The notes beneath the pieces are model-generated. The model worked only from the letters and a program-made list of their open reading frames with translations, made no database searches and was not told the DNA's origin. The position numbers and the translations under genes were made by a program. Shown here piece by piece: positions 1,119-11,354 of a stretch of DNA of 35,797 nt. The stretch is from IMG/VR virus record IMGVR_UViG_2563366950_000001. One strand, written 5' to 3'. The stretch's first letter is position 1, and each line of letters opens with the position of its first letter. This DNA is from a virus (lineage: Duplodnaviria; Heunggongvirae; Uroviricota; Caudoviricetes).

Positions 1119-2090
1119 TTAATCGGAGGATTTTTCTGAATGAGAAGGTTTGATTTTTTCTTTCGCGGTAGACCATAGCGTTTGGAAACTTGGCGGATAA
1201 TCCATTTGATCAGAAAAAGCAGAATCTCCAGACATGTTCCAGTCCTTAAATACCTGAATAGCATCTTCTTTGGTCGCAGTCGAACCGTAAATTTGTAGGA
1301 AGACTTGACCAAACATTAAGGCATGCCTTCTGTCTTTTCTGCGAATGGACTCATGAGTATACTTTTTGGAGATACTCAGACAGATATAAGAAAGCCATGA
1401 TAAAATGGAAATTCCAATCAGGCCTCTGGTGAATAGATAAAATAGTTCAAATCCTTTAGCATTTATGAAATCAGTAACAAAATATAATGATATGAACGAA
1501 AAAATGACAGCGGAAAGACCGGCTATTGCACCAGCAATAGCCCATGTTTTGGCGAGTGAAATAAAGTGATCATCATCATCACCTAAATCATCTTTTACAC
1601 TATTGACATATTCGGGAATTTTTTGATCAATTCTCTCTTGATGTGCTCGACTGGTTAATTCGTTATTTGAAGCCTCTAACTCTTTTATCCTAGAAAAAGT
1701 TTGCTCAAGTAAAGATTCTTTTTCTATGTTTAAATTTTCTAACTCTTTGTTTTTTAATGATAATGAGGTGTTGCTTTCTTGCAAATCAGATAAGCGAGCT
1801 GTATAAAAACGTAATAAGTTTCTGAATTCATTATTATCTTTTTTTAACACGTTAAGTTGTAATTCAATATCTTCGTCGCTAAAGCCGACTCTATCTAAGT
1901 TTTGGAGATGGCGTCTATATTGATCCTTGAATTCTTCAATTTCACCATTTTTCAACAAGTTCTTTAGATATGTGCGTTCATGTTCAGGAAGTGGAATAGA
2001 ATCATCATGTATAAAATCAACGTATTTTTTAAACTCTGATTTGGTGATGCTGTTTTGTATTGTTTCTTTTTTGTGTTCTTTAGAGTCCAT
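1119..2090 (-). CDS. hypothetical cargo protein: N-terminal coiled-coil domain, acidic linker, two predicted transmembrane helices, short C-terminal tail
   Basis: 323-aa ORF, visibly AT-rich. Heptad-like, charged N-terminal half (KNKELENLNIEKESLLEQ...), then DDLGDDDDH, then hydrophobic stretches WAIAGAIAGLSAVIFSFISLYFV and LIGISILSWLSYICLSI. Same strand as the repressor, 12 bp downstream of its stop codon. I recognise no family. Confidence 0.7.
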   Translation of the reverse strand: MDSKEHKKETIQNSITKSEFKKYVDFIHDDSIPLPEHERTYLKNLLKNGEIEEFKDQYRRHLQNLDRVGFSDEDIELQLNVLKKDNNEFRNLLRFYTARLSDLQESNTSLSLKNKELENLNIEKESLLEQTFSRIKELEASNNELTSRAHQERIDQKIPEYVNSVKDDLGDDDDHFISLAKTWAIAGAIAGLSAVIFSFISLYFVTDFINAKGFELFYLFTRGLIGISILSWLSYICLSISKKYTHESIRRKDRRHALMFGQVFLQIYGSTATKEDAIQVFKDWNMSGDSAFSDQMDYPPSFQTLWSTAKEKIKPSHSEKSSD

Positions 2091-2102: not shown

Positions 2103-3029
2103 TTAAATGTTTTTAATGAAAGCACAGTGGCATTTTGCTAAAAGTTTTATATTCTCAATGTCACATATGAAATCAGCATGAGTAGATATTACTTTAACTT
2201 TTCCTACGGGTATGCGGACCAATGTTCTAATGTTTATTTTGCCTTCAATTTCTACTAACCATTCACCATCAGATATTTCTTTATATCCATAGTCTACTAC
2301 GAAAACATTTTCGCTATCGATCACAACCTGCGGATTTATAAGGTTGTGTGGTATTAAAGATTTATCAAAGTGGATATAGTCCGCATCTATTAACTTACCA
2401 TTTATTAGCTTATATGCTAATAACTTTGCTACATCAGTATTTACATCGTTCGATTTTGAGCCTTTTCCAGTAACGAGCCAATCTAGTGATATACCAGTTT
2501 CAAGTGCGCATTGGATAATCCAATCGGCTGGAAATGTATCCCTCATATAACGATTAGCTAGTGTGCTTTTTGAAATACCCAAATGATCAGCTAAAGCTTG
2601 TCTTGTCTTAAATCCATAGGCTGCAACGATTCGCTCTATTGCTGCTTTTCCGTTTTGATTTATAGTAACAGTGTTCTCATTTGGGTTTTTAGGTTCTCTG
2701 TTGAGGTGCCGAGATTCACTGTTACAATTGTCGTGACTTTTATCTGCAAAGCTTTCCATTTCGGTATCAGTACCAAATGCTAACCACTCAATCGATACAC
2801 CAGTTTCCATACTACAGATAACAACCCAGTCAGCTGGGAAAGTGTCACGCGCATACCTGTTCGCCATTGTGCTCTGTGATATCCCCAGATGATTGCAGAA
2901 TGCTTGGCGTGAAGAAAAACCATACGCTTCTAATATCCGCTCGATGACTGCTTGCCCTCCGCGATTCTGCATGATTAAGGATTTCTTTTTTTCGTCCACA
3001 TGGCGAAATGTGATTTCGTGTGTTGACAT
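2103..3029 (-). CDS. CI-type immunity repressor with tandemly duplicated N-terminal helix-turn-helix domain plus C-terminal domain
   Basis: 308-aa ORF divergent from the early operon. Two internally repeated ~60-aa segments (RILEAYGFSSRQAFCNHLGISQSTMANRYARDTFPADWVVICSMETGVSIEWL and RIVAAYGFKTRQALADHLGISKSTLANRYMRDTFPADWIIQCALETGISLDWL) resemble the 186 CI N-terminal HTH fold. Its position is that of the lysogeny repressor. Confidence 0.75.
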   Translation of the reverse strand: MSTHEITFRHVDEKKKSLIMQNRGGQAVIERILEAYGFSSRQAFCNHLGISQSTMANRYARDTFPADWVVICSMETGVSIEWLAFGTDTEMESFADKSHDNCNSESRHLNREPKNPNENTVTINQNGKAAIERIVAAYGFKTRQALADHLGISKSTLANRYMRDTFPADWIIQCALETGISLDWLVTGKGSKSNDVNTDVAKLLAYKLINGKLIDADYIHFDKSLIPHNLINPQVVIDSENVFVVDYGYKEISDGEWLVEIEGKINIRTLVRIPVGKVKVISTHADFICDIENIKLLAKCHCAFIKNI

Positions 3030-4922: not shown

Positions 4923-5776
4923 GCACCATCCTGAAATGGGCGGGTAATAAAACCGCCATTATGCCAGAACTGAAAAAATACCTTCCTGCTGGCCCGCGAC
5001 TGGTTGAACCTTTCGCGGGTTCTTGTGCTGTGATGATAGAGACGGATTACCCCAGCTATCTTGTTGCGGATATCAATCCTGATTTAATCAACCTCTATAA
5101 AAAGGTTGCTGCTGATTGCGAGGCGTTTATATCTCGTGCCAGAGCTTTATTTGAGGAAGCAAACAGGGAGGTGGCTTATTACAACATAAGGCAGGAGTTT
5201 AATTACTCCACTGAAATTACTGATTTCATGAAAGCGGTATATTTCCTGTATCTCAATCGTCATGGTTACCGTGGGTTATGTCGCTATAACAAGAGCGGGC
5301 ATTTCAACATTCCCTATGGGAATTATAAAAATCCGTATTTCCCTGAAAAAGAAATTCGCAAATTTGCAGAAAAAGCCCAGCGAGCAACGTTTATCTGCGC
5401 CAGCTTTGATGAAACGCTGGCGATGTTGAAGGCGGGGGATGTGGTGTATTGCGATCCGCCTTATTACGGTACGTTTTCCGGCTATCACACTGATGGCTTC
5501 ACTGAGGATGACCAGTATCACCTGGCATCCGTTCTTGAACATCGATCATCTGAAGGTCATCCGGTCATTGTTTCTAACAGTGACACATCCCTGATTCGTT
5601 CGCTGTATCGCAATTTCACTCACCACTACATCAAGGCAAAACGCAGCATCGGCGTGTCGGCTGGCGAGAGTAAATCTGCAACAGAAATCATTGCTGTTTC
5701 CGGGGCGCGCTGCTGGGTGGGATTTGATCCTTCGCGTGGCGTAGATAGTTCTGCTGTGTACGAGGTGCGTGTATGA
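4919..5776 (+). CDS. dam: DNA adenine methyltransferase (Dam-like, N6-adenine)
   Basis: Starts [11 protein letters not shown] at the ATG overlapping the upstream stop. Contains the DPPY catalytic motif (CDPPYYGTF) and an N-terminal AdoMet-binding region (EPFAGSCAV). Confidence 0.85.
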
Positions 5777-8187
5777 GTCATGACGATATGAGCAACTCTA
5801 GCGGCTTTAACGAGGCCGCCGCATCATTTTCATGGAACGGCCCGAAAAAGGCCATTAACCCTTATCTGGACCCGGCGGAAGTTGCGCCGGAGTCTGCACT
5901 TTCAAACCTGATCACTCTGTATGCTGCCGATAACGAGCAGGAACAACTGCGCCGCGAGGCACTGAGTGAGCAGGTCTGGGAGCGTTATTTCTTTAATGAA
6001 TCCCGTGATCCTGTCCAGCGCGAAATGGAGCAGGATAAGCTCATTAGCCGGGCAAAGCTGGCGCATGAGCAGCAGCGTTTTAATCCAGACATGGTCATTC
6101 TGGCTGACGTCAACGCCCAGCCTTCCCATATCAGCAAGCCGCTGATGCAACGTATTGAATACTTCAGCAGCCTGGGCAGGCCAAAGGCTTATTCCCGCTA
6201 TTTGCGTGAGACGATTAAGCCATGTCTGGAACGGCTGGAGCATATACGCGACAGTCAGCTATCCACTTCTTTTCGCTTTATGGCGAGCCATGAAGGGCTG
6301 GACGGCCTGCTGATCCTGCCTGAAATGAGTCAGGAGCAGGTGAAACGCCTGTCCACCCTGGTAGCTGCGCATATGAGCATGTGCCTTGATGCAGCTTGTG
6401 GCGATTTGTATGCCACCGATGACGTTAAGCCAGAAGAAATCCGCAAGACATGGGAAAGGGTGGCAGCAGAAACCCTGCGACTGGATGTCATCCCACCTGC
6501 GTTTGAGCAACTCCGCCGGAAAAGAAACCGCCGTAAACCCGTGCCCTATGAACTCATTCCGGGTTCGCTGGCGCGTATGTTGTGTGCCGACTGGTGGTAC
6601 CGGAAATTATGGAAGATGCGTTGCGAATGGCGGGAAGAGCAGTTGCGCGCTGTCTGCCTGGTCAGCAAAAAAGCATCTCCCTATGTCAGCTATGAAGCCG
6701 TGATGCATAAACGTGAGCAGCGCCGTAAGTCGCTGGAGTTTTTTCGTTCTCATGAACTGGTGAACGAAGACGGCGACACGCTGGATATGGAAGACGTGGT
6801 AAACGCCAGCAGCAGCAACCCTGCACATCGCCGCAATGAGATGATGGCCTGTGTTAAAGGTCTGGAGCTTATCGCGGAAATGCGCGGTGACTGCGCCGTT
6901 TTCTACACCATCACCTGTCCGTCACGTTTCCATTCCACGCTCAATAACGGCAGACCAAACCCAACCTGGACAAATGCGACGGTAAGACAAAGCAGCGATT
7001 ATCTGGTCGGCATGTTTGCTGCATTTCGTAAGGCGATGCACAAAGCCGGGTTGCGCTGGTATGGCGTGCGGGTGGCTGAGCCGCATCATGACGGTACGGT
7101 TCACTGGCACCTGTTGTGTTTCATGCGCAAAAAAGACCGCCGTGCCATTACTGCATTGTTGTGTAAGTTTGCCATCCGTGAAGACCGCGAGGAACTGGGT
7201 AATAACACTGGTCCACGCTTTAAATCTGAGCTGATAAACCCGCGCAAAGGAACACCGACAAGCTACATCGCGAAATACATTAGTAAGAACATTGACGGGC
7301 GTGGTCTGGCTGGCGAGATCAGCAAGGAAACGGGTAAATCCCTGCGTGATAACGCTGAATACGTTAATGCCTGGGCGTCTCTGCATCGTGTTCAGCAATT
7401 CCGCTTCTTTGGTATTCCGGGGCGTCAGGCTTACCGTGAACTGCGATTGCTGGCTGGTCAGGCGGCAAGGCAACAGGGCGACAAAAAAGCAGGTGCGCCG
7501 GTACTGGATAACCCGCGCCTTGATGCCATCCTGGCTGCTGCTGATGCTGGTTGTTTTGCCACTTACATCATGAAGCAGGGTGGCGTACTGGTTCCCCGCA
7601 AATATCACCTCATCAGAACTGCTTATGAAATTAACGAAGAGCCGACCGCCTATGGCGATCACGGCATTCGTATTTATGGCATCTGGTCACCCATTGCAGA
7701 GGGCAAGATCTGCACTCATGCAGTGAAGTGGAAAATGGTTCGTAAAGCCGTTGACGTTCAGGAGGCGGTAGCCGACCAGGGCGCTTGCGCCCCTTGGACT
7801 CGTGGCAATAACTGTCCCCTTGCTGAAAATTTGAACCAACAAGCGAAAGACAAATCAGCTGATGGGGATACCAGAACGGACATCACCCGCATGGATGACA
7901 AGGAGTTGCACGATTACCTGCACAGCATGAGCAAGAAAGAGCGCCGGGAACTAGCAGCAAGGTTACGCCTGGTGAAACCGAAACGGCGTAAAGACTACAA
8001 ACAGCGAATTACAGACCATCAGCGACAGCAGCTCGTCTATGAACTGAAGTCCAGAGGATTTGATGGCAGCGAGAAAGAGGTCGATTTACTCCTTCGCGGC
8101 GGCAGTATTCCGTCAGGAGCAGGCCTGCGTATCTTCTATCGGAACCAGCGTCTGCAGGAGGATGATAAATGGCGGAACCTGTATTAA
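5773..8187 (+). CDS. A: replication initiation protein gpA (rolling-circle nicking endonuclease)
   Basis: 804-aa ORF. Contains an HxH-type metal motif (TVHWHLLCF) and the tyrosine-containing segment YIAKYISKN, as in P2 A. Confidence 0.9.
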
Positions 8188-8256
8188 TTACGCGGGTTAA
8201 CAATTCGTGCTCTTAATAATAACTGGCATATCAGGCTGATGAACGTAAAAAAACGT

Positions 8257-8297
8257 TTTACATCAGTAAGATTATTATATACTGTAAATATAAACAG
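8257..8297 (+). promoter_or_regulatory. putative sigma70 promoter (TTTACA ... TATACT) overlapped by a LexA/SOS box (CTGTAAATATAAACAG, 8282-8297)
   Basis: Perfect CTGT-N8-ACAG with an AT-rich spacer, flanked as tACTGT...ACAGtg (consensus TACTGTATATATATACAGTA). Lies in the gap after gene A, upstream of the small ORF and the DinI-like gene. Confidence 0.55.
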
Positions 8298-8340
8298 TGG
8301 TTATAAACACAGTATTCCGAGTGGTGTTATAGGAGGAAAG

Positions 8341-8529
8341 ATGCAGGACTATTTTTTGGAGTCTTTGAAGCTCCAGCGCATTGATTTTTTTCTTAAGCTT
8401 GTAGCGGCTAGTGAGTGTAGTGATGAAGAGAAGGGGCTGGCTTTGCAGTGGGTATCTGAACTGACTGATGAACTCATGGCAAAAATCAGAACCCACGAAT
8501 ACAACCGCTCAATGGATGTCATCAGTTGA
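8341..8529 (+). CDS. small hypothetical protein (first gene of the putative SOS-controlled operon)
   Basis: 62 aa from the ATG at 8341, which is preceded by AGGAGG; the longer ORF-track start at 8239 lacks an RBS and would overlap the LexA box. Confidence 0.4.
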   Translation: MQDYFLESLKLQRIDFFLKLVAASECSDEEKGLALQWVSELTDELMAKIRTHEYNRSMDVIS

Positions 8530-8539
8530 GGTGACTTTT

Positions 8540-8773
8540 ATGCGCATTGAAATAATGATCGATAAAGAGCAGAAGATTAGTCAGTCTACCCTGGACGCCC
8601 TTGAAAACGAGCTTTACCGCAATCTGCGCCCCCTGTATCCCAAAACGGTAATTCGTATCCGCAAAGGTAGCTCTAACGGTGTGGAACTGACCGGGCTGCA
8701 ACTGGACGAAGAAAGAAAACAAGTGATGAAAATTATGCAGAAGGTGTGGGAAGACGACAGCTGGTTACATTAG
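8540..8773 (+). CDS. DinI-family protein (Tum-like antirepressor module candidate)
   Basis: 77 aa from the ATG at 8540, after a GAGGTG RBS. Size and the acidic C-terminus (MKIMQKVWEDDSWLH) are typical of DinI-like proteins. Confidence 0.75.
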   Translation: MRIEIMIDKEQKISQSTLDALENELYRNLRPLYPKTVIRIRKGSSNGVELTGLQLDEERKQVMKIMQKVWEDDSWLH

Positions 8774-8993
8774 GGAACGTTGCGGACGATAAAACTGGTT
8801 TTTACCGTTCGCAAGGTTGAGCAACGAGCCGTGCGAGGCGTTAGTTATGGATAAATTGGTTGCAGGGTGATATGTAAATAGGTTAATACGTAGCACTCTT
8901 CGAATAGTTTCGTATTTTTGTTGTCCTATAATCATAAGATGACAGCCTCCATGCACCACAATCCGTGGCGTTTGAGGCATAAAGGAGGAAAAT

Positions 8994-9194
8994 ATGTCTG
9001 AACTTCTGCGCAAAGTTCTCTCTGCACCAGGTAAGATTATGCAGGATGTCATCCGTCAGGATGTGCAACAGTCTGATAATAGTAAAATTATCACAGATGC
9101 TAATGGTGCGGCGACCTTAAACATGAACAATAAGCAGGTACGTGAATCAATGCGTGCCAGAATGGAAGAATTGGCTGCAAAACGACAAGGATGA
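8994..9194 (+). CDS. small hypothetical protein (66 aa), first gene of a two-gene cargo operon
   Basis: Strong RBS AAGGAGG 6 nt upstream of ATG. Stop at 9192-9194 lies 3 bp before the next start. Confidence 0.55.
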   Translation: MSELLRKVLSAPGKIMQDVIRQDVQQSDNSKIITDANGAATLNMNNKQVRESMRARMEELAAKRQG

Positions 9195-9197
9195 GGA

Positions 9198-9980
9198 ATG
9201 GGACCCTTAGTTATCATGGTCGTCCTGGTTTGCGGGTTCTGGTACACCGAAAATCATTACCAGTCCCGCATCAGGCAAGCAAGAAGTAATGGTTGGAATT
9301 CCTATTTTTATGTAGCTATGCATGGTTGTAAGTTTGCTATTCAGGGGTTTACTCTGATGGCTGTTACATTCGTTATCTTGCTAGTTATAAGCTCAGTTAT
9401 CAATGTTTTTGGTTATTTTTGGCCTAAGTTACATGTGGACTTTTATTCATGGCTCACAGACGTAAAGATAATGTCTTACCCATTGTTCTTTGTGTTGTCT
9501 ATGCTGCTTGCGGTGTTTATTGCTTATGACCAAGGTAACAATGCGCGAAGAGCAATAGAAAACGAAGAGATTCGTCAATCTGCATATCGCGAGATGGCAG
9601 CTCAAGATGGAATTGAGTCACTGTTAGTTCAGGCTATAGATGAAGGTAAGCTCATCTTTGTTACGCTAAAATCCAGAAAAGTTTACATTGGTTACGTAGC
9701 TGCTCCTCGGATGGAGCATCAGGAAACTCAGCATCTGGCTCTCATACCATACATCAGTGGTTATCGTGATAAAGATACGCTCAGATACCATGAGCAGCAT
9801 CGTTACTATGAACTTTACCTTAGTAAAAATATTACAGCAGACTCAACTCCACTGAACTTAAATCATTTTAGGCATGTAATCCCAATGGATCAGGTTGAGA
9901 GTATTTCAATATTTGATACTGAAACTTATAAATCTTTCGAAGATTTTTCTACGCCTGACCAGACCAAAGTCACTGCATGA
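9198..9980 (+). CDS. hypothetical membrane protein (3 predicted N-terminal TM helices plus ~150-aa soluble C-terminal domain)
   Basis: 260-aa ORF, AT-rich. Hydrophobic segments LVIMVVLVCGFWY, LMAVTFVILLVISSVINVFGYFW and LFFVLSMLLAVFIAY. Translationally coupled to the upstream small ORF. Confidence 0.7.
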   Translation: MGPLVIMVVLVCGFWYTENHYQSRIRQARSNGWNSYFYVAMHGCKFAIQGFTLMAVTFVILLVISSVINVFGYFWPKLHVDFYSWLTDVKIMSYPLFFVLSMLLAVFIAYDQGNNARRAIENEEIRQSAYREMAAQDGIESLLVQAIDEGKLIFVTLKSRKVYIGYVAAPRMEHQETQHLALIPYISGYRDKDTLRYHEQHRYYELYLSKNITADSTPLNLNHFRHVIPMDQVESISIFDTETYKSFEDFSTPDQTKVTA

Positions 9981-10028
9981 CTATGCCGCATGAATATGCA
10001 TGATCGTTTGAGGATCGTTTTTGCTGAG

Positions 10029-10054
10029 GCCCGCCAGTTCTGGTGGGCTTTTGC
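10029..10054 (+). terminator. rho-independent terminator candidate downstream of the 260-aa gene
   Basis: GCCCGCCAG-ttc-TGGTGGGC hairpin (one G-U pair) followed by TTTTGC. Confidence 0.45.
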
Positions 10055-10097
10055 TTATGTCATGCACCTGCATGAAAATCGCTACAAAAAGCGGGCA

Positions 10098-10116
10098 GGC
10101 GTGGCGGGGATACGAG
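10098..10116. other. probable cos site (cohesive-end region) of the P2/186-type genome
   Basis: GGCGTGGCGGGGATACGAG followed by GCGCGCGC resembles the 19-nt cohesive ends I recall for P2 (GGCGAGGCGGGGAAAGCAC) and 186. It lies in a non-coding gap upstream of the portal end of the late region. Confidence 0.4.
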
Positions 10117-10199
10117 CGCGCGCAACTCGAGATAGTGTGATACTTATCTGAGAAATCTTAACAAGGTTCAATACAATACCCTTTCAAAAAAAGGGGAGT

Positions 10200-11354
10200 G
10201 TGATGTTTGTAAAAAATAACTTTAATACAAATAATTTCGATGCGGAATTAGTTGAAGCGATTGGTAATAGGCTGGAAAACAACCAATTTTCGGATGCAAT
10301 ACTTGCAGGAACCAAATATCTAACAACTTTGCTGCGTGAAAAAGGGCAATGTGAAGGGGATGGGGCTCAGCTTGTTGGTACTGTTTTGGGTGGACAATCA
10401 CCTAGAATCCAAATTAATAGTCTTCAATCTGTATCAGAGCAGGACGAACAGCGCGGATTTGAAGCACTATTAAGAGGCTACTATCAGTGTATAAGAAATC
10501 CAAGGACACATGACAATTTCCCTGATACAGAAGATTCCTGCATGAGAATATTGATCATGTTGGATACTTTTATTAAGTATTTAAAAAGAGATGTTGCTGA
10601 GTTCGATTACACAGCAATTCTTGAAAGAATTTATGAGGTTCACTTTGTAAATAATTCTGATTATGCAGAAGCTTTAATATCACAAATTCCAGAAAAAAAA
10701 CTACTGGATTTTTTCCAAAGTTTAATTTCTCGCTTTAATGAAAGGCCAACCAAGGAAATTGATTCTATATTCAAAGCAATAAACCAACGCTTTTCAGGAG
10801 AGGAAGAAAAAGCCGCAATGCGGTTGCTAGGTGATGAGTTACGCAAGGCTAGCAATAATGTTGAGTTTGCTAATGTATTTAGAATAATTAAGCCGAGCGC
10901 ATGGAGAAATCTTCCTGATGATGTTTTAATTAGAATGGAAAATATAATCATCGAAGAGTGCAAAAAAGGATATTTGGATTTCTATTCTGATGCGACCAAA
11001 GGAGCTATAGGAACATGGGGTAATACATTTGGTAGCAAATTTAAAAGAAGAGGTGATCTTGGTGATGCTTTAATTGGATTGTTATATGATAGTTGGTATA
11101 CGCAAAATTATGTTGCGAAATATTACGTTTTTTCAATCCCTTCTATCATTACTGATGATGTGAAAGTTAAGGAGTTAGCTGATGCTTTAGCTTATGCCAC
11201 CATTGTAAATGGTGCTAAGCTTTTACGAACAAAATTGATTGATGCATGTAAAAATTATCCTGATAAGTTGAAAGAGCATCTTAGGGATGCTGTTCAGCAA
11301 CGGATGGATAGTGATAAAAAATATGCGGAAGAATTATTAGGTCAAATAAGCTGA
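10200..11354 (+). CDS. hypothetical protein with HEPN-like N-terminal domain (Rx4H motif); candidate abortive-infection RNase
   Basis: 384-aa ORF, strongly AT-rich, GGGGAG RBS. N-terminal domain contains CIRNPRTHDNFPD (Rx4H), which I associate with HEPN/TIGR02391-like families. C-terminal ~250 aa unrecognised. Confidence 0.7.
   Translation: MMFVKNNFNTNNFDAELVEAIGNRLENNQFSDAILAGTKYLTTLLREKGQCEGDGAQLVGTVLGGQSPRIQINSLQSVSEQDEQRGFEALLRGYYQCIRNPRTHDNFPDTEDSCMRILIMLDTFIKYLKRDVAEFDYTAILERIYEVHFVNNSDYAEALISQIPEKKLLDFFQSLISRFNERPTKEIDSIFKAINQRFSGEEEKAAMRLLGDELRKASNNVEFANVFRIIKPSAWRNLPDDVLIRMENIIIEECKKGYLDFYSDATKGAIGTWGNTFGSKFKRRGDLGDALIGLLYDSWYTQNYVAKYYVFSIPSIITDDVKVKELADALAYATIVNGAKLLRTKLIDACKNYPDKLKEHLRDAVQQRMDSDKKYAEELLGQIS

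What the first reader, a model, noticed from the sequence alone, without database searches (positions are those of the whole stretch)
8257..8773. SOS-controlled operon: near-consensus LexA box upstream of a small ORF and a DinI-family gene (Tum-like antirepressor module)
tACTGTAAATATAAACAGtg at 8281-8298 is a near-perfect LexA operator overlapping a plausible promoter. The downstream genes are a 62-aa ORF and a 77-aa DinI-like protein. In 186 the SOS-induced antirepressor Tum sits in the same place (right of gene A) and, as I recall, has a DinI-like C-terminal half. Here the two parts appear to be separate ORFs in different frames, which could be a split antirepressor or a true DinI-type RecA modulator.
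Basis: partly seen in the sequence, partly recalled or inferred. Interest (0 to 1): 0.5.

Follow-up and report, generated by a model that had tools for sequence, protein, structure and literature searches.

The report
SOS-controlled prophage antirepressor plus DinI gene
This is the DNA-damage switch of a P2/186-like prophage of E. coli CFT073: a LexA-repressed promoter drives a 62-residue antirepressor (a split form of phage 186 Tum) and a separate DinI-like gene, an arrangement already described and genetically tested in near-identical prophages, so it is real but ordinary.

Summary
A LexA box, TACTGTAAATATAAACAGTG (8280-8299), matches the consensus at 17 of 20 positions with a perfect CTGT-N8-ACAG core. 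Its left arm doubles as the -10 of a promoter (TTTACA, 17 nt, TACTGT). Downstream lie a 62-aa ORF (8341-8529) and a 77-aa DinI-family gene (8540-8773), directly after replication gene A.

The window is 100% identical to the E. coli CFT073 P2-like prophage, and 1125 of 5426 complete E. coli genomes carry the module. Profile comparison shows the 62-aa protein is homologous to residues 4-46 of 186 Tum (hhalign E 2.9e-8). The DinI-like protein aligns to Tum residues 71-145.

PSP3 annotates the same pair as tumA and tumB, and Lemire et al. 2011 describe the split in Fels-2 and PSP3. In E. coli HS prophage DuoHS the promoter and LexA box are identical and the 62-aa protein is 61/62 identical. There, an in-frame deletion of exactly this ORF, or lexA(Ind-), abolishes mitomycin-induced lysis (Nat Microbiol 2025).

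The split is not a sequencing error. It is conserved and under purifying selection, and frame offsets and stop codons differ between lineages. The role of the DinI-like gene remains untested.

The parts
5773..8187 (+). Replication gene A (804 aa). This is the left neighbour that fixes the position of the module.
   Evidence: Pfam Phage_GPA, E 6e-127. The order A then tum is the same in 186, PSP3, Fels-2 and DuoHS.
8257..8262 (+). -35 hexamer TTTACA of the SOS promoter (the p95 equivalent).
   Evidence: Read from the sequence. TT[TC]ACA followed by 17-18 nt and TACTGT is seen in 9 of 10 related phages aligned and is annotated as p95 in 186.
8280..8299 (.). LexA operator TACTGTAAATATAAACAGTG. 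Its left arm TACTGT (8280-8285) is also the -10 hexamer.
   Evidence: 17/20 to the consensus, with 0 of 100 shuffles giving such a match. Each of 9 related loci, plus the window, has a CTGT-N8-ACAG core upstream of its tumA homologue. The sequence is identical in DuoHS and Fels-2.
8295..8314 (.). Degenerate second box CAGTGGTTATAAACACAGTA (GTGG-N8-ACAG, 14/20). It is probably a relic duplication of the right arm and not a strong LexA site.
   Evidence: Read from the sequence. It is conserved within the Fels-2-like group only. It lacks the C of CTG.
8331..8336 (+). Shine-Dalgarno AGGAGG of the 62-aa ORF.
8341..8529 (+). tumA-type antirepressor gene (62 aa). The product is predicted to be a helical hairpin.
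   Evidence: phrog_698 at 3.6e-38, with cross-hits to Tum families. hhalign to 186 Tum gives E 2.9e-8. It is 61/62 identical to DuoHS tum, ECHS_RS04495. dN/dS is 0.06-0.12. The AF2 model has pLDDT 89 with helices 2-22 and 28-61.
8528..8534 (+). Shine-Dalgarno GAGGTGA of the DinI-like gene. It overlaps the tumA stop codon.
   Evidence: It is invariant in CFT073, HS and Fels-2.
8540..8773 (+). DinI-family gene (77 aa; the tumB equivalent).
   Evidence: Pfam DinI at 3.4e-23. It is 78% identical to PSP3 TumB and 41% identical to 186 Tum 71-145. It matches E. coli DinI (1GHH) at E 2.7e-6. dN/dS is 0.03-0.11.
8776..8818 (+). Long hairpin directly 3' of the DinI stop, with no U tract. It may mark the transcript end or the boundary with the variable cargo. 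Its function is uncertain.
   Evidence: RNA fold. The scan found no canonical terminator there. Similarity to Fels-2 ends at 8771.
2103..3029 (-). 186-type CI immunity repressor (RefSeq start at 2972), the presumed target of the antirepressor. It has two tandem HTH domains plus a CI C-terminal domain.
   Evidence: Pfam Phage_CI_repr x2 (1.9e-61) and Phage_CI_C (4.8e-29). It is 35% identical to 186 CI, 33% to PSP3 CI and 49% to DuoHS CI.

Best explanation
The region is the SOS operon of a Fels-2/186-like (Peduoviridae) prophage.

In an undamaged lysogen, host LexA sits on the box at 8280-8299. The box overlaps the -10 of the promoter, so transcription is blocked. DNA damage activates RecA, LexA cleaves itself, and the promoter fires. 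Two small proteins are then made from independent start codons.

The first is a 62-residue helical hairpin homologous to the N-terminal half of phage 186 Tum. It acts as the antirepressor: it binds the 186-type CI repressor and stops it holding the lytic promoter, without cleaving it, which starts lytic development.

The second is a DinI-family protein equivalent to the C-terminal half of 186 Tum and to PSP3 TumB. It is not the antirepressor. It most likely modulates RecA filaments and so tunes the strength or duration of the SOS signal.

What is shown here: the sequence features, the homologies, the conservation, the purifying selection, and a CI of the 186 type. What is shown by others on near-identical elements: dependence of induction on LexA cleavage and on the 62-aa gene. 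What is inferred: direct binding of TumA to this CI, and any effect of the DinI-like protein on RecA.
For: - LexA box: statistically non-random. Each of 9 related loci, plus the window, has a CTGT-N8-ACAG core upstream of its tumA homologue. By my reading of the alignment, it overlaps the -10 in 9 of the 10 aligned phages. This is the architecture annotated for 186 p95.
- 62-aa ORF as Tum N-terminal homologue: PHROG cross-hits, hhalign E 2.9e-8 against 186 Tum and 2.1e-10 against a Yersinia phage 'tum protein'.
- DinI-like gene: aligns to Tum 71-145. It starts exactly where 186 has an internal AGGAGG plus GTG start, annotated as 'truncated Tum'.
- PSP3 record: tumA is annotated 'UV induction of prophage' and tumB 'similar to dinI'.
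- Lemire 2011 (PMC3121763): tum is split in Fels-2 and PSP3, and the upstream PSP3 gene carries the antirepressor activity.
- DuoHS (PMC12055606): delta-tum and lexA(Ind-) both abolish MMC-induced lysis. The deletion primers map to window 8329-8343 and 8527-8549, so they remove only the 62-aa ORF and leave the DinI gene. DuoHS tum is 61/62 identical and its promoter and LexA box are identical.
- Target: a 186-type CI is present.
- Selection: both genes have dN/dS of 0.03-0.12.
- Distribution: the module is in 1125 of 5426 complete E. coli genomes.
Against: Nothing was tested on this particular prophage. LexA binding, SOS induction and the TumA-CI interaction are all extrapolated.

The CI here differs from that of DuoHS: 49% identity, an extra HTH domain, and a C-terminal domain only about 31% identical. 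Sensitivity of this CI to this Tum is therefore assumed, not shown.

Pairwise BLASTP does not detect the ORF62-Tum similarity. The homology rests on profile methods.

For dinI homologues in Gifsy prophages, non-polar deletions had no measurable effect on induction. The proposed RecA-modulating role may therefore be subtle or absent.
Confidence: 0.9

Rival explanations
1. The 62-aa ORF is not a gene but a leader. The only product is an SOS-induced DinI-type RecA modulator carried as a lysogenic-conversion gene, unrelated to prophage induction.
For: The DinI-like gene is the only part with a curated family hit. The 62-aa ORF has no Pfam or PADLOC hit and is annotated 'hypothetical' in RefSeq.
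Against: The ORF has a strong SD and dN/dS of 0.06-0.12 over sequences whose dS reaches about 1. It has 484 database relatives and profile homology to the Tum N-terminus. Its precise deletion in DuoHS abolishes induction while the DinI gene stays intact. ESSI-2-type and Yersinia phages keep the LexA-boxed tumA without any DinI gene.
Confidence: 0.03
2. The two ORFs are a broken (frameshifted or mis-sequenced) 186-type tum, or are rejoined by programmed frameshifting or readthrough into one Tum-like protein.
For: The combined size of the two ORFs (62 + 77 aa) is close to that of 186 Tum (146 aa), and the DinI frame is open for 72 nt upstream of its ATG. In PSP3 and YpM_MLG42 the two genes are in the same frame, separated by one TAG.
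Against: The junction is identical in four CFT073 assemblies, in HS and in Fels-2. The frame offset is 0, +1 or +2 in different lineages, with TGA, TAA or TAG stops and spacers of 3-12 nt. No single recoding mechanism fits all of these. Each DinI gene has its own SD and ATG. Both halves are under purifying selection. None of the 85 representatives of the ORF62 family has the N-terminal match in a protein of about 146 aa that a fused Tum would show. The hairpin at the junction is not conserved and folds no better than shuffles, z -0.75.
Confidence: 0.03
3. The DinI-like protein is an obligatory partner of the antirepressor, so both proteins are needed to inactivate CI, as if Tum were simply cut in two.
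For: The two genes are adjacent and co-transcribed across the Fels-2-like group and PSP3, and are fused in 186.
Against: TumA-only lineages exist. The PSP3 antirepressor activity is assigned to the upstream gene alone. The Gifsy dinI deletions had no effect on induction. No experiment here or in the papers read removes only the DinI-like gene of a Fels-2-like phage, so a helper role is not excluded.
Confidence: 0.1

Closest known systems
E. coli HS prophage DuoHS tum (ECHS_RS04495) and its DinI-like neighbour (ECHS_RS04500); Phollow study, PMC12055606
   Same: The attachment site next to rcdA and the gene order are the same. The -35, LexA box and -10 are identical. Tum is 61/62 identical, and the junction to the DinI gene is identical. 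Induction there requires tum and cleavable LexA.
   Different: The CI repressor is 188 aa with one HTH, against about 289-307 aa with two HTH domains here, and the two are 49% identical. The cargo downstream of the DinI gene is different.
Salmonella phage Fels-2, STM2728 and STM2726.1
   Same: It is 96% identical in DNA over 8190-8771 and has the same two genes. The split of tum in Fels-2 is noted in the literature, and Fels-2 makes a lexA null lethal (Bunny et al. 2002, as cited in PMC3121763).
   Different: CI is 210 aa with a different C-terminal domain, about 30% identical. The next gene is a 243-aa ORF the same length as 186 orf97, which is absent here.
Phage PSP3 tumA / tumB
   Same: It is a split tum with a LexA box overlapping the -10. 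TumB is 78% identical to the DinI-like protein here. Its CI also has two tandem HTH domains.
   Different: TumA is very divergent: hhalign E is only 0.0047, and the link runs through phrog_1993 and 186 Tum. The two genes are in the same frame, separated by TAG plus one codon.
Coliphage 186 Tum, p95 SOS operon
   Same: It has the same position after gene A and the same promoter/operator architecture. The N-terminal antirepressor part and the C-terminal DinI-like part are both homologous. An internal start yields a free DinI-like product.
   Different: It is a single 146-aa fusion protein. The operon continues into orf97, which has no relative here.
Gifsy-1/2/3 dinI-gfoA/gftA LexA-controlled antirepressor operons (Lemire 2011)
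   Same: The logic is the same: LexA box, DinI homologue, and a small antirepressor acting on a non-cleavable repressor.
   Different: The gene order is reversed (dinI first). The antirepressors and repressors are unrelated in sequence, and the phages are lambdoid.

Membership tests
Tum-type SOS antirepressor module of 186-like phages (split tumA/tumB form) | Lies directly downstream of replication gene A, on the same strand. | tested here: met
   Gene A is at 5773-8187 and the module at 8257-8773. The order is the same in 186, PSP3, Fels-2 and DuoHS.
Tum-type SOS antirepressor module of 186-like phages (split tumA/tumB form) | Promoter whose -10 overlaps a LexA operator. | tested here: met
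   Sequence level only. TTTACA, 17 nt, TACTGT, with the box at 8280-8299. The layout matches the annotated 186 p95 and 9 of 10 relatives.
Tum-type SOS antirepressor module of 186-like phages (split tumA/tumB form) | LexA actually binds and represses, and the promoter is SOS-inducible. | not testable with these tools
   Reported indirectly for the identical promoter of DuoHS, where lexA(Ind-) blocks induction.
Tum-type SOS antirepressor module of 186-like phages (split tumA/tumB form) | Product homologous to the N-terminal (non-DinI) part of 186 Tum. | tested here: met
   phrog_698 hits Tum 7-44 at E 2.4e-5 and ORF62 hits phrog_1993 at 0.0022. hhalign gives probability 95%, E 2.9e-8. Pairwise BLASTP is negative.
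Tum-type SOS antirepressor module of 186-like phages (split tumA/tumB form) | The same phage carries a cognate 186-type CI repressor (Phage_CI_repr HTH plus Phage_CI_C, not a LexA-like self-cleaving repressor). | tested here: met
   No peptidase S24 domain was found. Identity to 186, PSP3 and DuoHS CI is 33-49%.
Tum-type SOS antirepressor module of 186-like phages (split tumA/tumB form) | The gene is required for SOS induction of the prophage. | not testable with these tools
   Shown for the 61/62-identical DuoHS gene by in-frame deletion. Not shown for the CFT073 prophage.
Tum-type SOS antirepressor module of 186-like phages (split tumA/tumB form) | The protein binds CI and prevents operator binding without cleaving it. 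| not testable with these tools
   Shown only for 186 Tum (Shearwin 1998, as cited in PMC3121763 and PMC7708051).
DinI family (PF06183) | Sequence membership, and a size of about 80 aa. | tested here: met
   82.2 bits against a cut-off of 24.2, covering the whole 63-position model. It matches E. coli DinI 1GHH over residues 1-75 at E 2.7e-6.
DinI family (PF06183) | Belongs to the LexA regulon. | tested here: met
   Sequence level only. It lies 10 nt behind tumA, downstream of the LexA-boxed promoter, and the scan found no σ70-like promoter site between them.
DinI family (PF06183) | Binds RecA filaments through the acidic C-terminal helix. | not testable with these tools
   By my own count of residues, the C-terminal helix keeps D56 E57 E58 and E72 D73 D74 but also has three lysines. 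The net charge is about 0, against about -5 for E. coli DinI. RecA binding is therefore plausible but unproven.
Gammaproteobacterial LexA operator (SOS box) | A 16-bp palindromic core CTGT-N8-ACAG with an AT-rich spacer, inside a 20-mer close to TACTGTATATATATACAGTA. | tested here: met
   The core is perfect, the spacer AAATATAA contains only A and T, and the 20-mer matches at 17/20. The heterology index was not computed because the matrix was not available.

The most novel reading that the evidence does not exclude
The 62-residue TumA hairpin may recognise the HTH N-terminal domain of CI rather than its oligomerising C-terminal domain. If so, one Tum allele could switch on P2-like prophages whose CI proteins have almost unrelated C-terminal domains, including the tandem-HTH CI of this prophage. 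That would allow cross-induction among co-resident Fels-2-like prophages.

The hint comes from 11 phages. Tum identity tracks CI N-terminal-domain identity (Mantel r 0.89; partial r 0.56, p about 6e-4 after controlling for gpA). It does not track C-terminal-domain identity (partial r 0.07). 186 and PSP3 share a 91%-identical gpA but have diverged in parallel in Tum (34%) and in the CI N-terminal domain (39%).

A second open point is whether the variable cargo after the DinI gene is read through from the SOS promoter, as orf97 is in 186. That would make it DNA-damage-induced.
Probability: 0.3. Interest if true: 0.35.

Novelty: already known. Interest (0 to 1): 0.12.

Why it matters
The module decides when a very common family of E. 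coli, Salmonella and Klebsiella prophages leaves lysogeny after DNA damage, for example during fluoroquinolone treatment. It is carried by about a fifth of complete E. coli genomes. That is biologically important but established. For this window, the value of the finding is correct annotation. The 'hypothetical protein' at 8341-8529 of CFT073 is the Tum antirepressor. The neighbouring 'DinI family protein' is the TumB equivalent, whose role is still experimentally open.

Tried and rejected
- **Pairwise BLASTP.** ORF62 against 186 Tum and against PSP3 TumA, and PSP3 TumA against 186 Tum, all returned nothing. The homology appeared only with PHROG profiles and hhalign.
- **Junction hairpin.** The 'terminator-like' hairpin at 8518-8535 was considered as an attenuator or a translational-coupling element. 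I rejected it: z is -0.75 against shuffles, and the stem is not conserved in SopEPhi, Klebsiella or Yersinia relatives.
- **Recoding.** Programmed +1 frameshift or stop readthrough to rebuild a fused Tum was rejected. Frame offsets of 0, +1 and +2 and all three stop codons occur among lineages.
- **Second LexA box.** The site at 8295-8314 matches at only 14/20 and lacks the C of CTG. I treat it as a relic.
- **96-aa reading.** Some gene callers start the ORF at ATG 8239. I rejected this: that ATG lies upstream of the promoter and operator, and the strong SD precedes 8341. RefSeq and the DuoHS deletion both use the 62-aa form.
- **ORF260 as an orf97 homologue.** No similarity was found.
- **Structure searches.** The AF2 model of ORF62 matched only generic helical hairpins, best E 0.75. 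A PDB sequence search with the family profile found nothing.
- **PADLOC.** No hit for ORF62 or the DinI-like protein.
- **Literature.** Bunny, Liu and Roth 2002 could not be read, so it is cited only through Lemire 2011. Searches for tumA/tumB and for induction of the CFT073 P2-like prophage gave nothing useful.
Full report
**What is in the sequence.**
The window is a P2/186-like prophage. Replication gene A (804 aa, Pfam Phage_GPA, E 6e-127) ends at 8187. In the 153-nt gap that follows there is a 20-mer, TACTGTAAATATAAACAGTG, at 8280-8299. It matches the LexA consensus TACTGTATATATATACAGTA at 17 of 20 positions, with a perfect CTGT-N8-ACAG core and an A/T-only spacer.

With up to three mismatches it is the only such site in 35.8 kb, and none of 100 dinucleotide-preserving shuffles produced one. 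The 16-mer core alone is not significant: 2 were found against 0.51 expected. The other core match, at 31615-31630, has a GC-rich spacer and lies inside a 366-aa ORF.

Upstream, TTTACA (8257-8262) is separated by 17 nt from TACTGT (8280-8285), the left arm of the box. The generic promoter scan did not report this pair because TACTGT matches TATAAT at only three positions.

Two ORFs follow. The first is 62 aa (8341-8529) behind AGGAGG. The second is 77 aa (8540-8773) behind GAGGTGA. They are 10 nt apart and in different frames. The second is a clear DinI-family protein: Pfam PF06183 at E 3.4e-23, and E. coli DinI 1GHH at E 2.7e-6.

**Where it comes from and how common it is.**
Bases 8190-8800 are 100% identical to E. 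coli CFT073 (four independent assemblies) and two further E. coli strains. The prophage sits next to rcdA. The same stretch occurs in 1125 of 5426 complete E. coli genomes. It is 95-96% identical in Fels-2 and in many Klebsiella and Salmonella P2-like phages. RefSeq annotates the two genes as 'hypothetical protein' and 'DinI family protein'.

**Comparison with phage 186.**
In the 186 record the region right of gene A carries promoter p95. Its -35 is TTCACA and its -10 is TACTGT, and a LexA site starts at the -10. Next comes tum (146 aa), with three annotated internal starts, and then orf97.

The window's DinI-like protein aligns from its Met1 to Tum residue 71 (41% identity, E 6e-24). Residue 71 is the annotated internal GTG start of 'truncated Tum', which is preceded by AGGAGG in 186. 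The promoter/operator layout of the window is the same as p95.

By my reading of the alignment, the pattern TT[TC]ACA, 17-18 nt, TACTGT recurs in 9 of the 10 aligned phages: the window, Fels-2, SopEPhi, a Klebsiella and a Yersinia pestis phage, ESSI-2, ESSI2_ev015, PSP3 and 186. Each of the 9 fetched loci, like the window, has a CTGT-N8-ACAG core upstream of its tumA homologue. Two of them have a second core match further downstream in the locus.

**Is the 62-aa ORF the other half of Tum?**
Pairwise BLASTP finds nothing, but profile methods do.

- ORF62 belongs to phrog_698 (3.6e-38). It also hits phrog_8554 (2.4e-8) and phrog_1993 (0.0022).
- 186 Tum hits phrog_1993 (1e-22), phrog_8554 (1.4e-11) and phrog_698 (2.4e-5, residues 7-44 on profile positions 7-44).
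- PSP3 TumA is a phrog_1993 member (2.7e-32).
- A profile of 33 diverse relatives, collected by an exhaustive search, aligns to 186 Tum residues 4-46 with hhalign probability 95% and E 2.9e-8.
- The same profile aligns to a Yersinia phage protein annotated 'tum protein' with E 2.1e-10.

The shared motif is roughly E-x3-L-[QE]-R-I-[DE]-h-h-x-[KR]-L-x5-C-x3-[DE]-[KR]-x-[LI]-A-h-x-W/L-h-x-E-[LI].

The family is small: 85 representatives at E of 0.001 or better. Almost all are 35-130 aa, and none has the N-terminal match in a protein of about 146 aa that a fused Tum would show. It has no solved structure. AlphaFold2 predicts a two-helix hairpin (helices 2-22 and 28-61, pLDDT 89), which resembles only generic hairpins in the PDB.

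**The split is real.**
The junction TGAGGTGACTTTTATG is invariant in CFT073, E. coli HS and Fels-2. In other lineages the two genes are separated by TAA or TAG, by 3-12 nt, and with frame offsets of 0, +1 or +2. This argues against both a sequencing error and any single recoding mechanism.

Both genes are under strong purifying selection. dN/dS is 0.06-0.12 for the 62-aa gene and 0.03-0.11 for the DinI-like gene, with dS up to about 1 or more. ESSI-2, ESSI2_ev015 and Yersinia phage YenM_06.16-2 carry a LexA-boxed tumA homologue with no DinI gene at all. The antirepressor part can therefore stand alone.

**What is already published.**
The PSP3 GenBank record names the pair tumA ('similar to 5' end 186 tum; UV induction of prophage') and tumB ('similar to dinI and 3' end of 186 tum'). 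The Fels-2 record points to TumB.

Lemire, Figueroa-Bossi and Bossi (PMC3121763) make three relevant statements:

- 186 Tum looks like an antirepressor fused to DinI.
- In PSP3 the upstream gene carries the antirepressor activity. This is a personal communication cited by Bunny et al. 2002, whose title attributes a lethal lexA-null phenotype in Salmonella to the Fels-2 prophage.

The most direct evidence comes from the Phollow study of E. coli HS prophage DuoHS (PMC12055606). A lexA(Ind-) allele or an in-frame delta-tum abolishes mitomycin-induced lysis and virion foci. The supplementary primer list gives tum as ECHS_RS04495. The junction primer ATAGGAGGAAAGATG|TGAGGTGACTTTTATGCGCATTG matches window 8329-8343 and 8527-8549 exactly. 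The deletion therefore removes precisely the 62-aa ORF and keeps the DinI-like gene. ECHS_RS04495 is a 62-aa gene followed by a DinI-like gene. It is 61/62 identical to the window protein, and the -35, LexA box and -10 are identical.

**The target.**
The window encodes a 186-type CI at 2103-3029 on the minus strand. It has Phage_CI_repr and Phage_CI_C domains and no self-cleaving peptidase domain, which is the kind of repressor that needs an antirepressor. It carries two tandem HTH domains, as PSP3 CI does. 186 and DuoHS CI each have one by Pfam. Fels-2 CI, at 210 aa, appears to have one as well, but I did not scan it.

**A side analysis on specificity.**
I compared Tum identity with CI and gpA identity across 11 phages. 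Tum identity follows the identity of the CI HTH domain (Mantel r 0.89). It follows the C-terminal domain only weakly (r 0.29).

Tum is linked to gene A, so I controlled for gpA identity. The partial correlation with the HTH domain stays at 0.56 (p about 6e-4). The partial correlation with the C-terminal domain is 0.07.

Two contrasts illustrate this. CFT073, HS and Fels-2 share an identical Tum core, while their CI C-terminal domains are only 30-35% identical. 186 and PSP3 share a 91%-identical gpA but have diverged together in Tum (34%) and in the CI HTH domain (39%).

With 11 related phages this is only a hint that TumA contacts the DNA-binding domain.

**Mechanism.**
- Inferred from the operator position, and supported by the lexA(Ind-) result in DuoHS: LexA occludes the -10.
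- Established SOS biology: DNA damage leads to RecA-stimulated LexA self-cleavage.
- Inferred from position and the absence of any intervening σ70-like promoter site in the scan: the operon is transcribed as one unit.
- Sequence: each gene has its own ribosome-binding site.
- Requirement shown genetically in DuoHS, mechanism shown biochemically only for 186 Tum: TumA inactivates CI.
- Inference from family membership only: the DinI-like protein modulates RecA filaments.

Deletions of dinI homologues in Gifsy prophages had no measurable effect on induction. By my residue count the protein here is less acidic than E. coli DinI.

**Where the operon ends is unclear.**
Similarity to Fels-2 stops at the DinI stop codon. 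A 43-nt hairpin without a U tract follows at 8776-8818, and the scan found no canonical terminator or promoter before the next ORF at 8994.

The next three ORFs are a 66-aa protein, a 260-aa protein that looks membrane-bound from its N-terminal hydrophobic stretches, and a 384-aa TIGR02391/HEPN-like protein. As a set they occur in only five complete E. coli genomes.

**Verdict.**
The finding is a correct, well-reasoned rediscovery of a known regulatory module. The novelty class is 'already known' and interest is low. Three questions remain open: the function of the DinI-like partner, the CI domain that TumA recognises, and whether the downstream cargo is SOS-induced.

Noticed in passing
window 2103-3029 (-): The CI immunity repressor carries two tandem Phage_CI_repr HTH domains (about residues 22-85 and 126-190) before the CI C-terminal domain. 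PSP3 CI has the same layout. 186 and DuoHS CI have a single HTH by Pfam, and Fels-2 CI (210 aa, not scanned) appears to as well.
   Followed up: partly
window 8994-11354 (+): Variable cargo lies directly after the DinI gene. It comprises ORF66, ORF260 (N-terminal hydrophobic segments, phrog_3630) and ORF384 (TIGR02391/Hypoth_Ymh, with partial PD-Lambda-3_B and Aga_HEPN hits). The complete set is in only 5 of 5426 complete E. coli genomes, against 1125 for the tum-dinI module. It sits in the slot where 186 has orf97, and the scan found no promoter or terminator in between, so it may be SOS co-transcribed. It is a possible defence cargo.
   Followed up: partly
window 8776-8818 (+): A long, nearly perfect hairpin starts three bases after the DinI stop and has no U tract. 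It coincides with the point where similarity to Fels-2 and the Klebsiella phages ends.
   Followed up: partly
window 8295-8314: A degenerate second LexA-like site (GTGG-N8-ACAG, 14/20) overlaps the 3' end of the real box. It looks like a duplication of TATAAACAGT and is present throughout the Fels-2-like group, but absent from 186, PSP3 and ESSI-2.
   Followed up: partly
L004/L018 (ESSI-2), L005/L019 (ESSI2_ev015), L006/L020 (YenM_06.16-2): These Peduoviridae carry a LexA-boxed tumA homologue but no DinI-like gene. In ESSI-2 the tumA ORF is not annotated at all.
   Followed up: partly
L001 5282-5295 (phage 186): Inside the fused 186 tum, an AGGAGG plus GTG start sits exactly where the separate DinI genes of split phages begin. 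This fits 186 Tum being a fusion that still expresses the free DinI-like part.
   Followed up: yes
11 phage loci (window, L001, L003, L011-L020): Tum identity co-varies with the CI HTH domain and not with the CI C-terminal domain, also after controlling for gpA. 186 and PSP3 have 91%-identical gpA but only 34%-identical Tum N-terminal parts and 39%-identical CI HTH domains.
   Followed up: partly
window 1119-2090 (-): A 323-aa ORF between integrase and cI reaches no curated family threshold. Its only hits are sub-threshold, to DUF2207_C (a membrane-protein C-terminal domain) and to GAS (a coiled-coil family). By eye it has hydrophobic stretches in the C-terminal half. It is probably a moron.
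   Followed up: no
window 31615-31630 (+): The only other CTGT-N8-ACAG core in the window has a GC-rich spacer and lies inside a 366-aa ORF. It is most likely a chance match.
   Followed up: partly
window 8239-8529 and database entries: Many gene calls extend the 62-aa ORF to 84-101 aa, for example from the ATG at 8239, which lies upstream of the promoter and LexA box. Some records name the protein 'levan regulatory protein'. Both look like annotation artefacts.
   Followed up: partly
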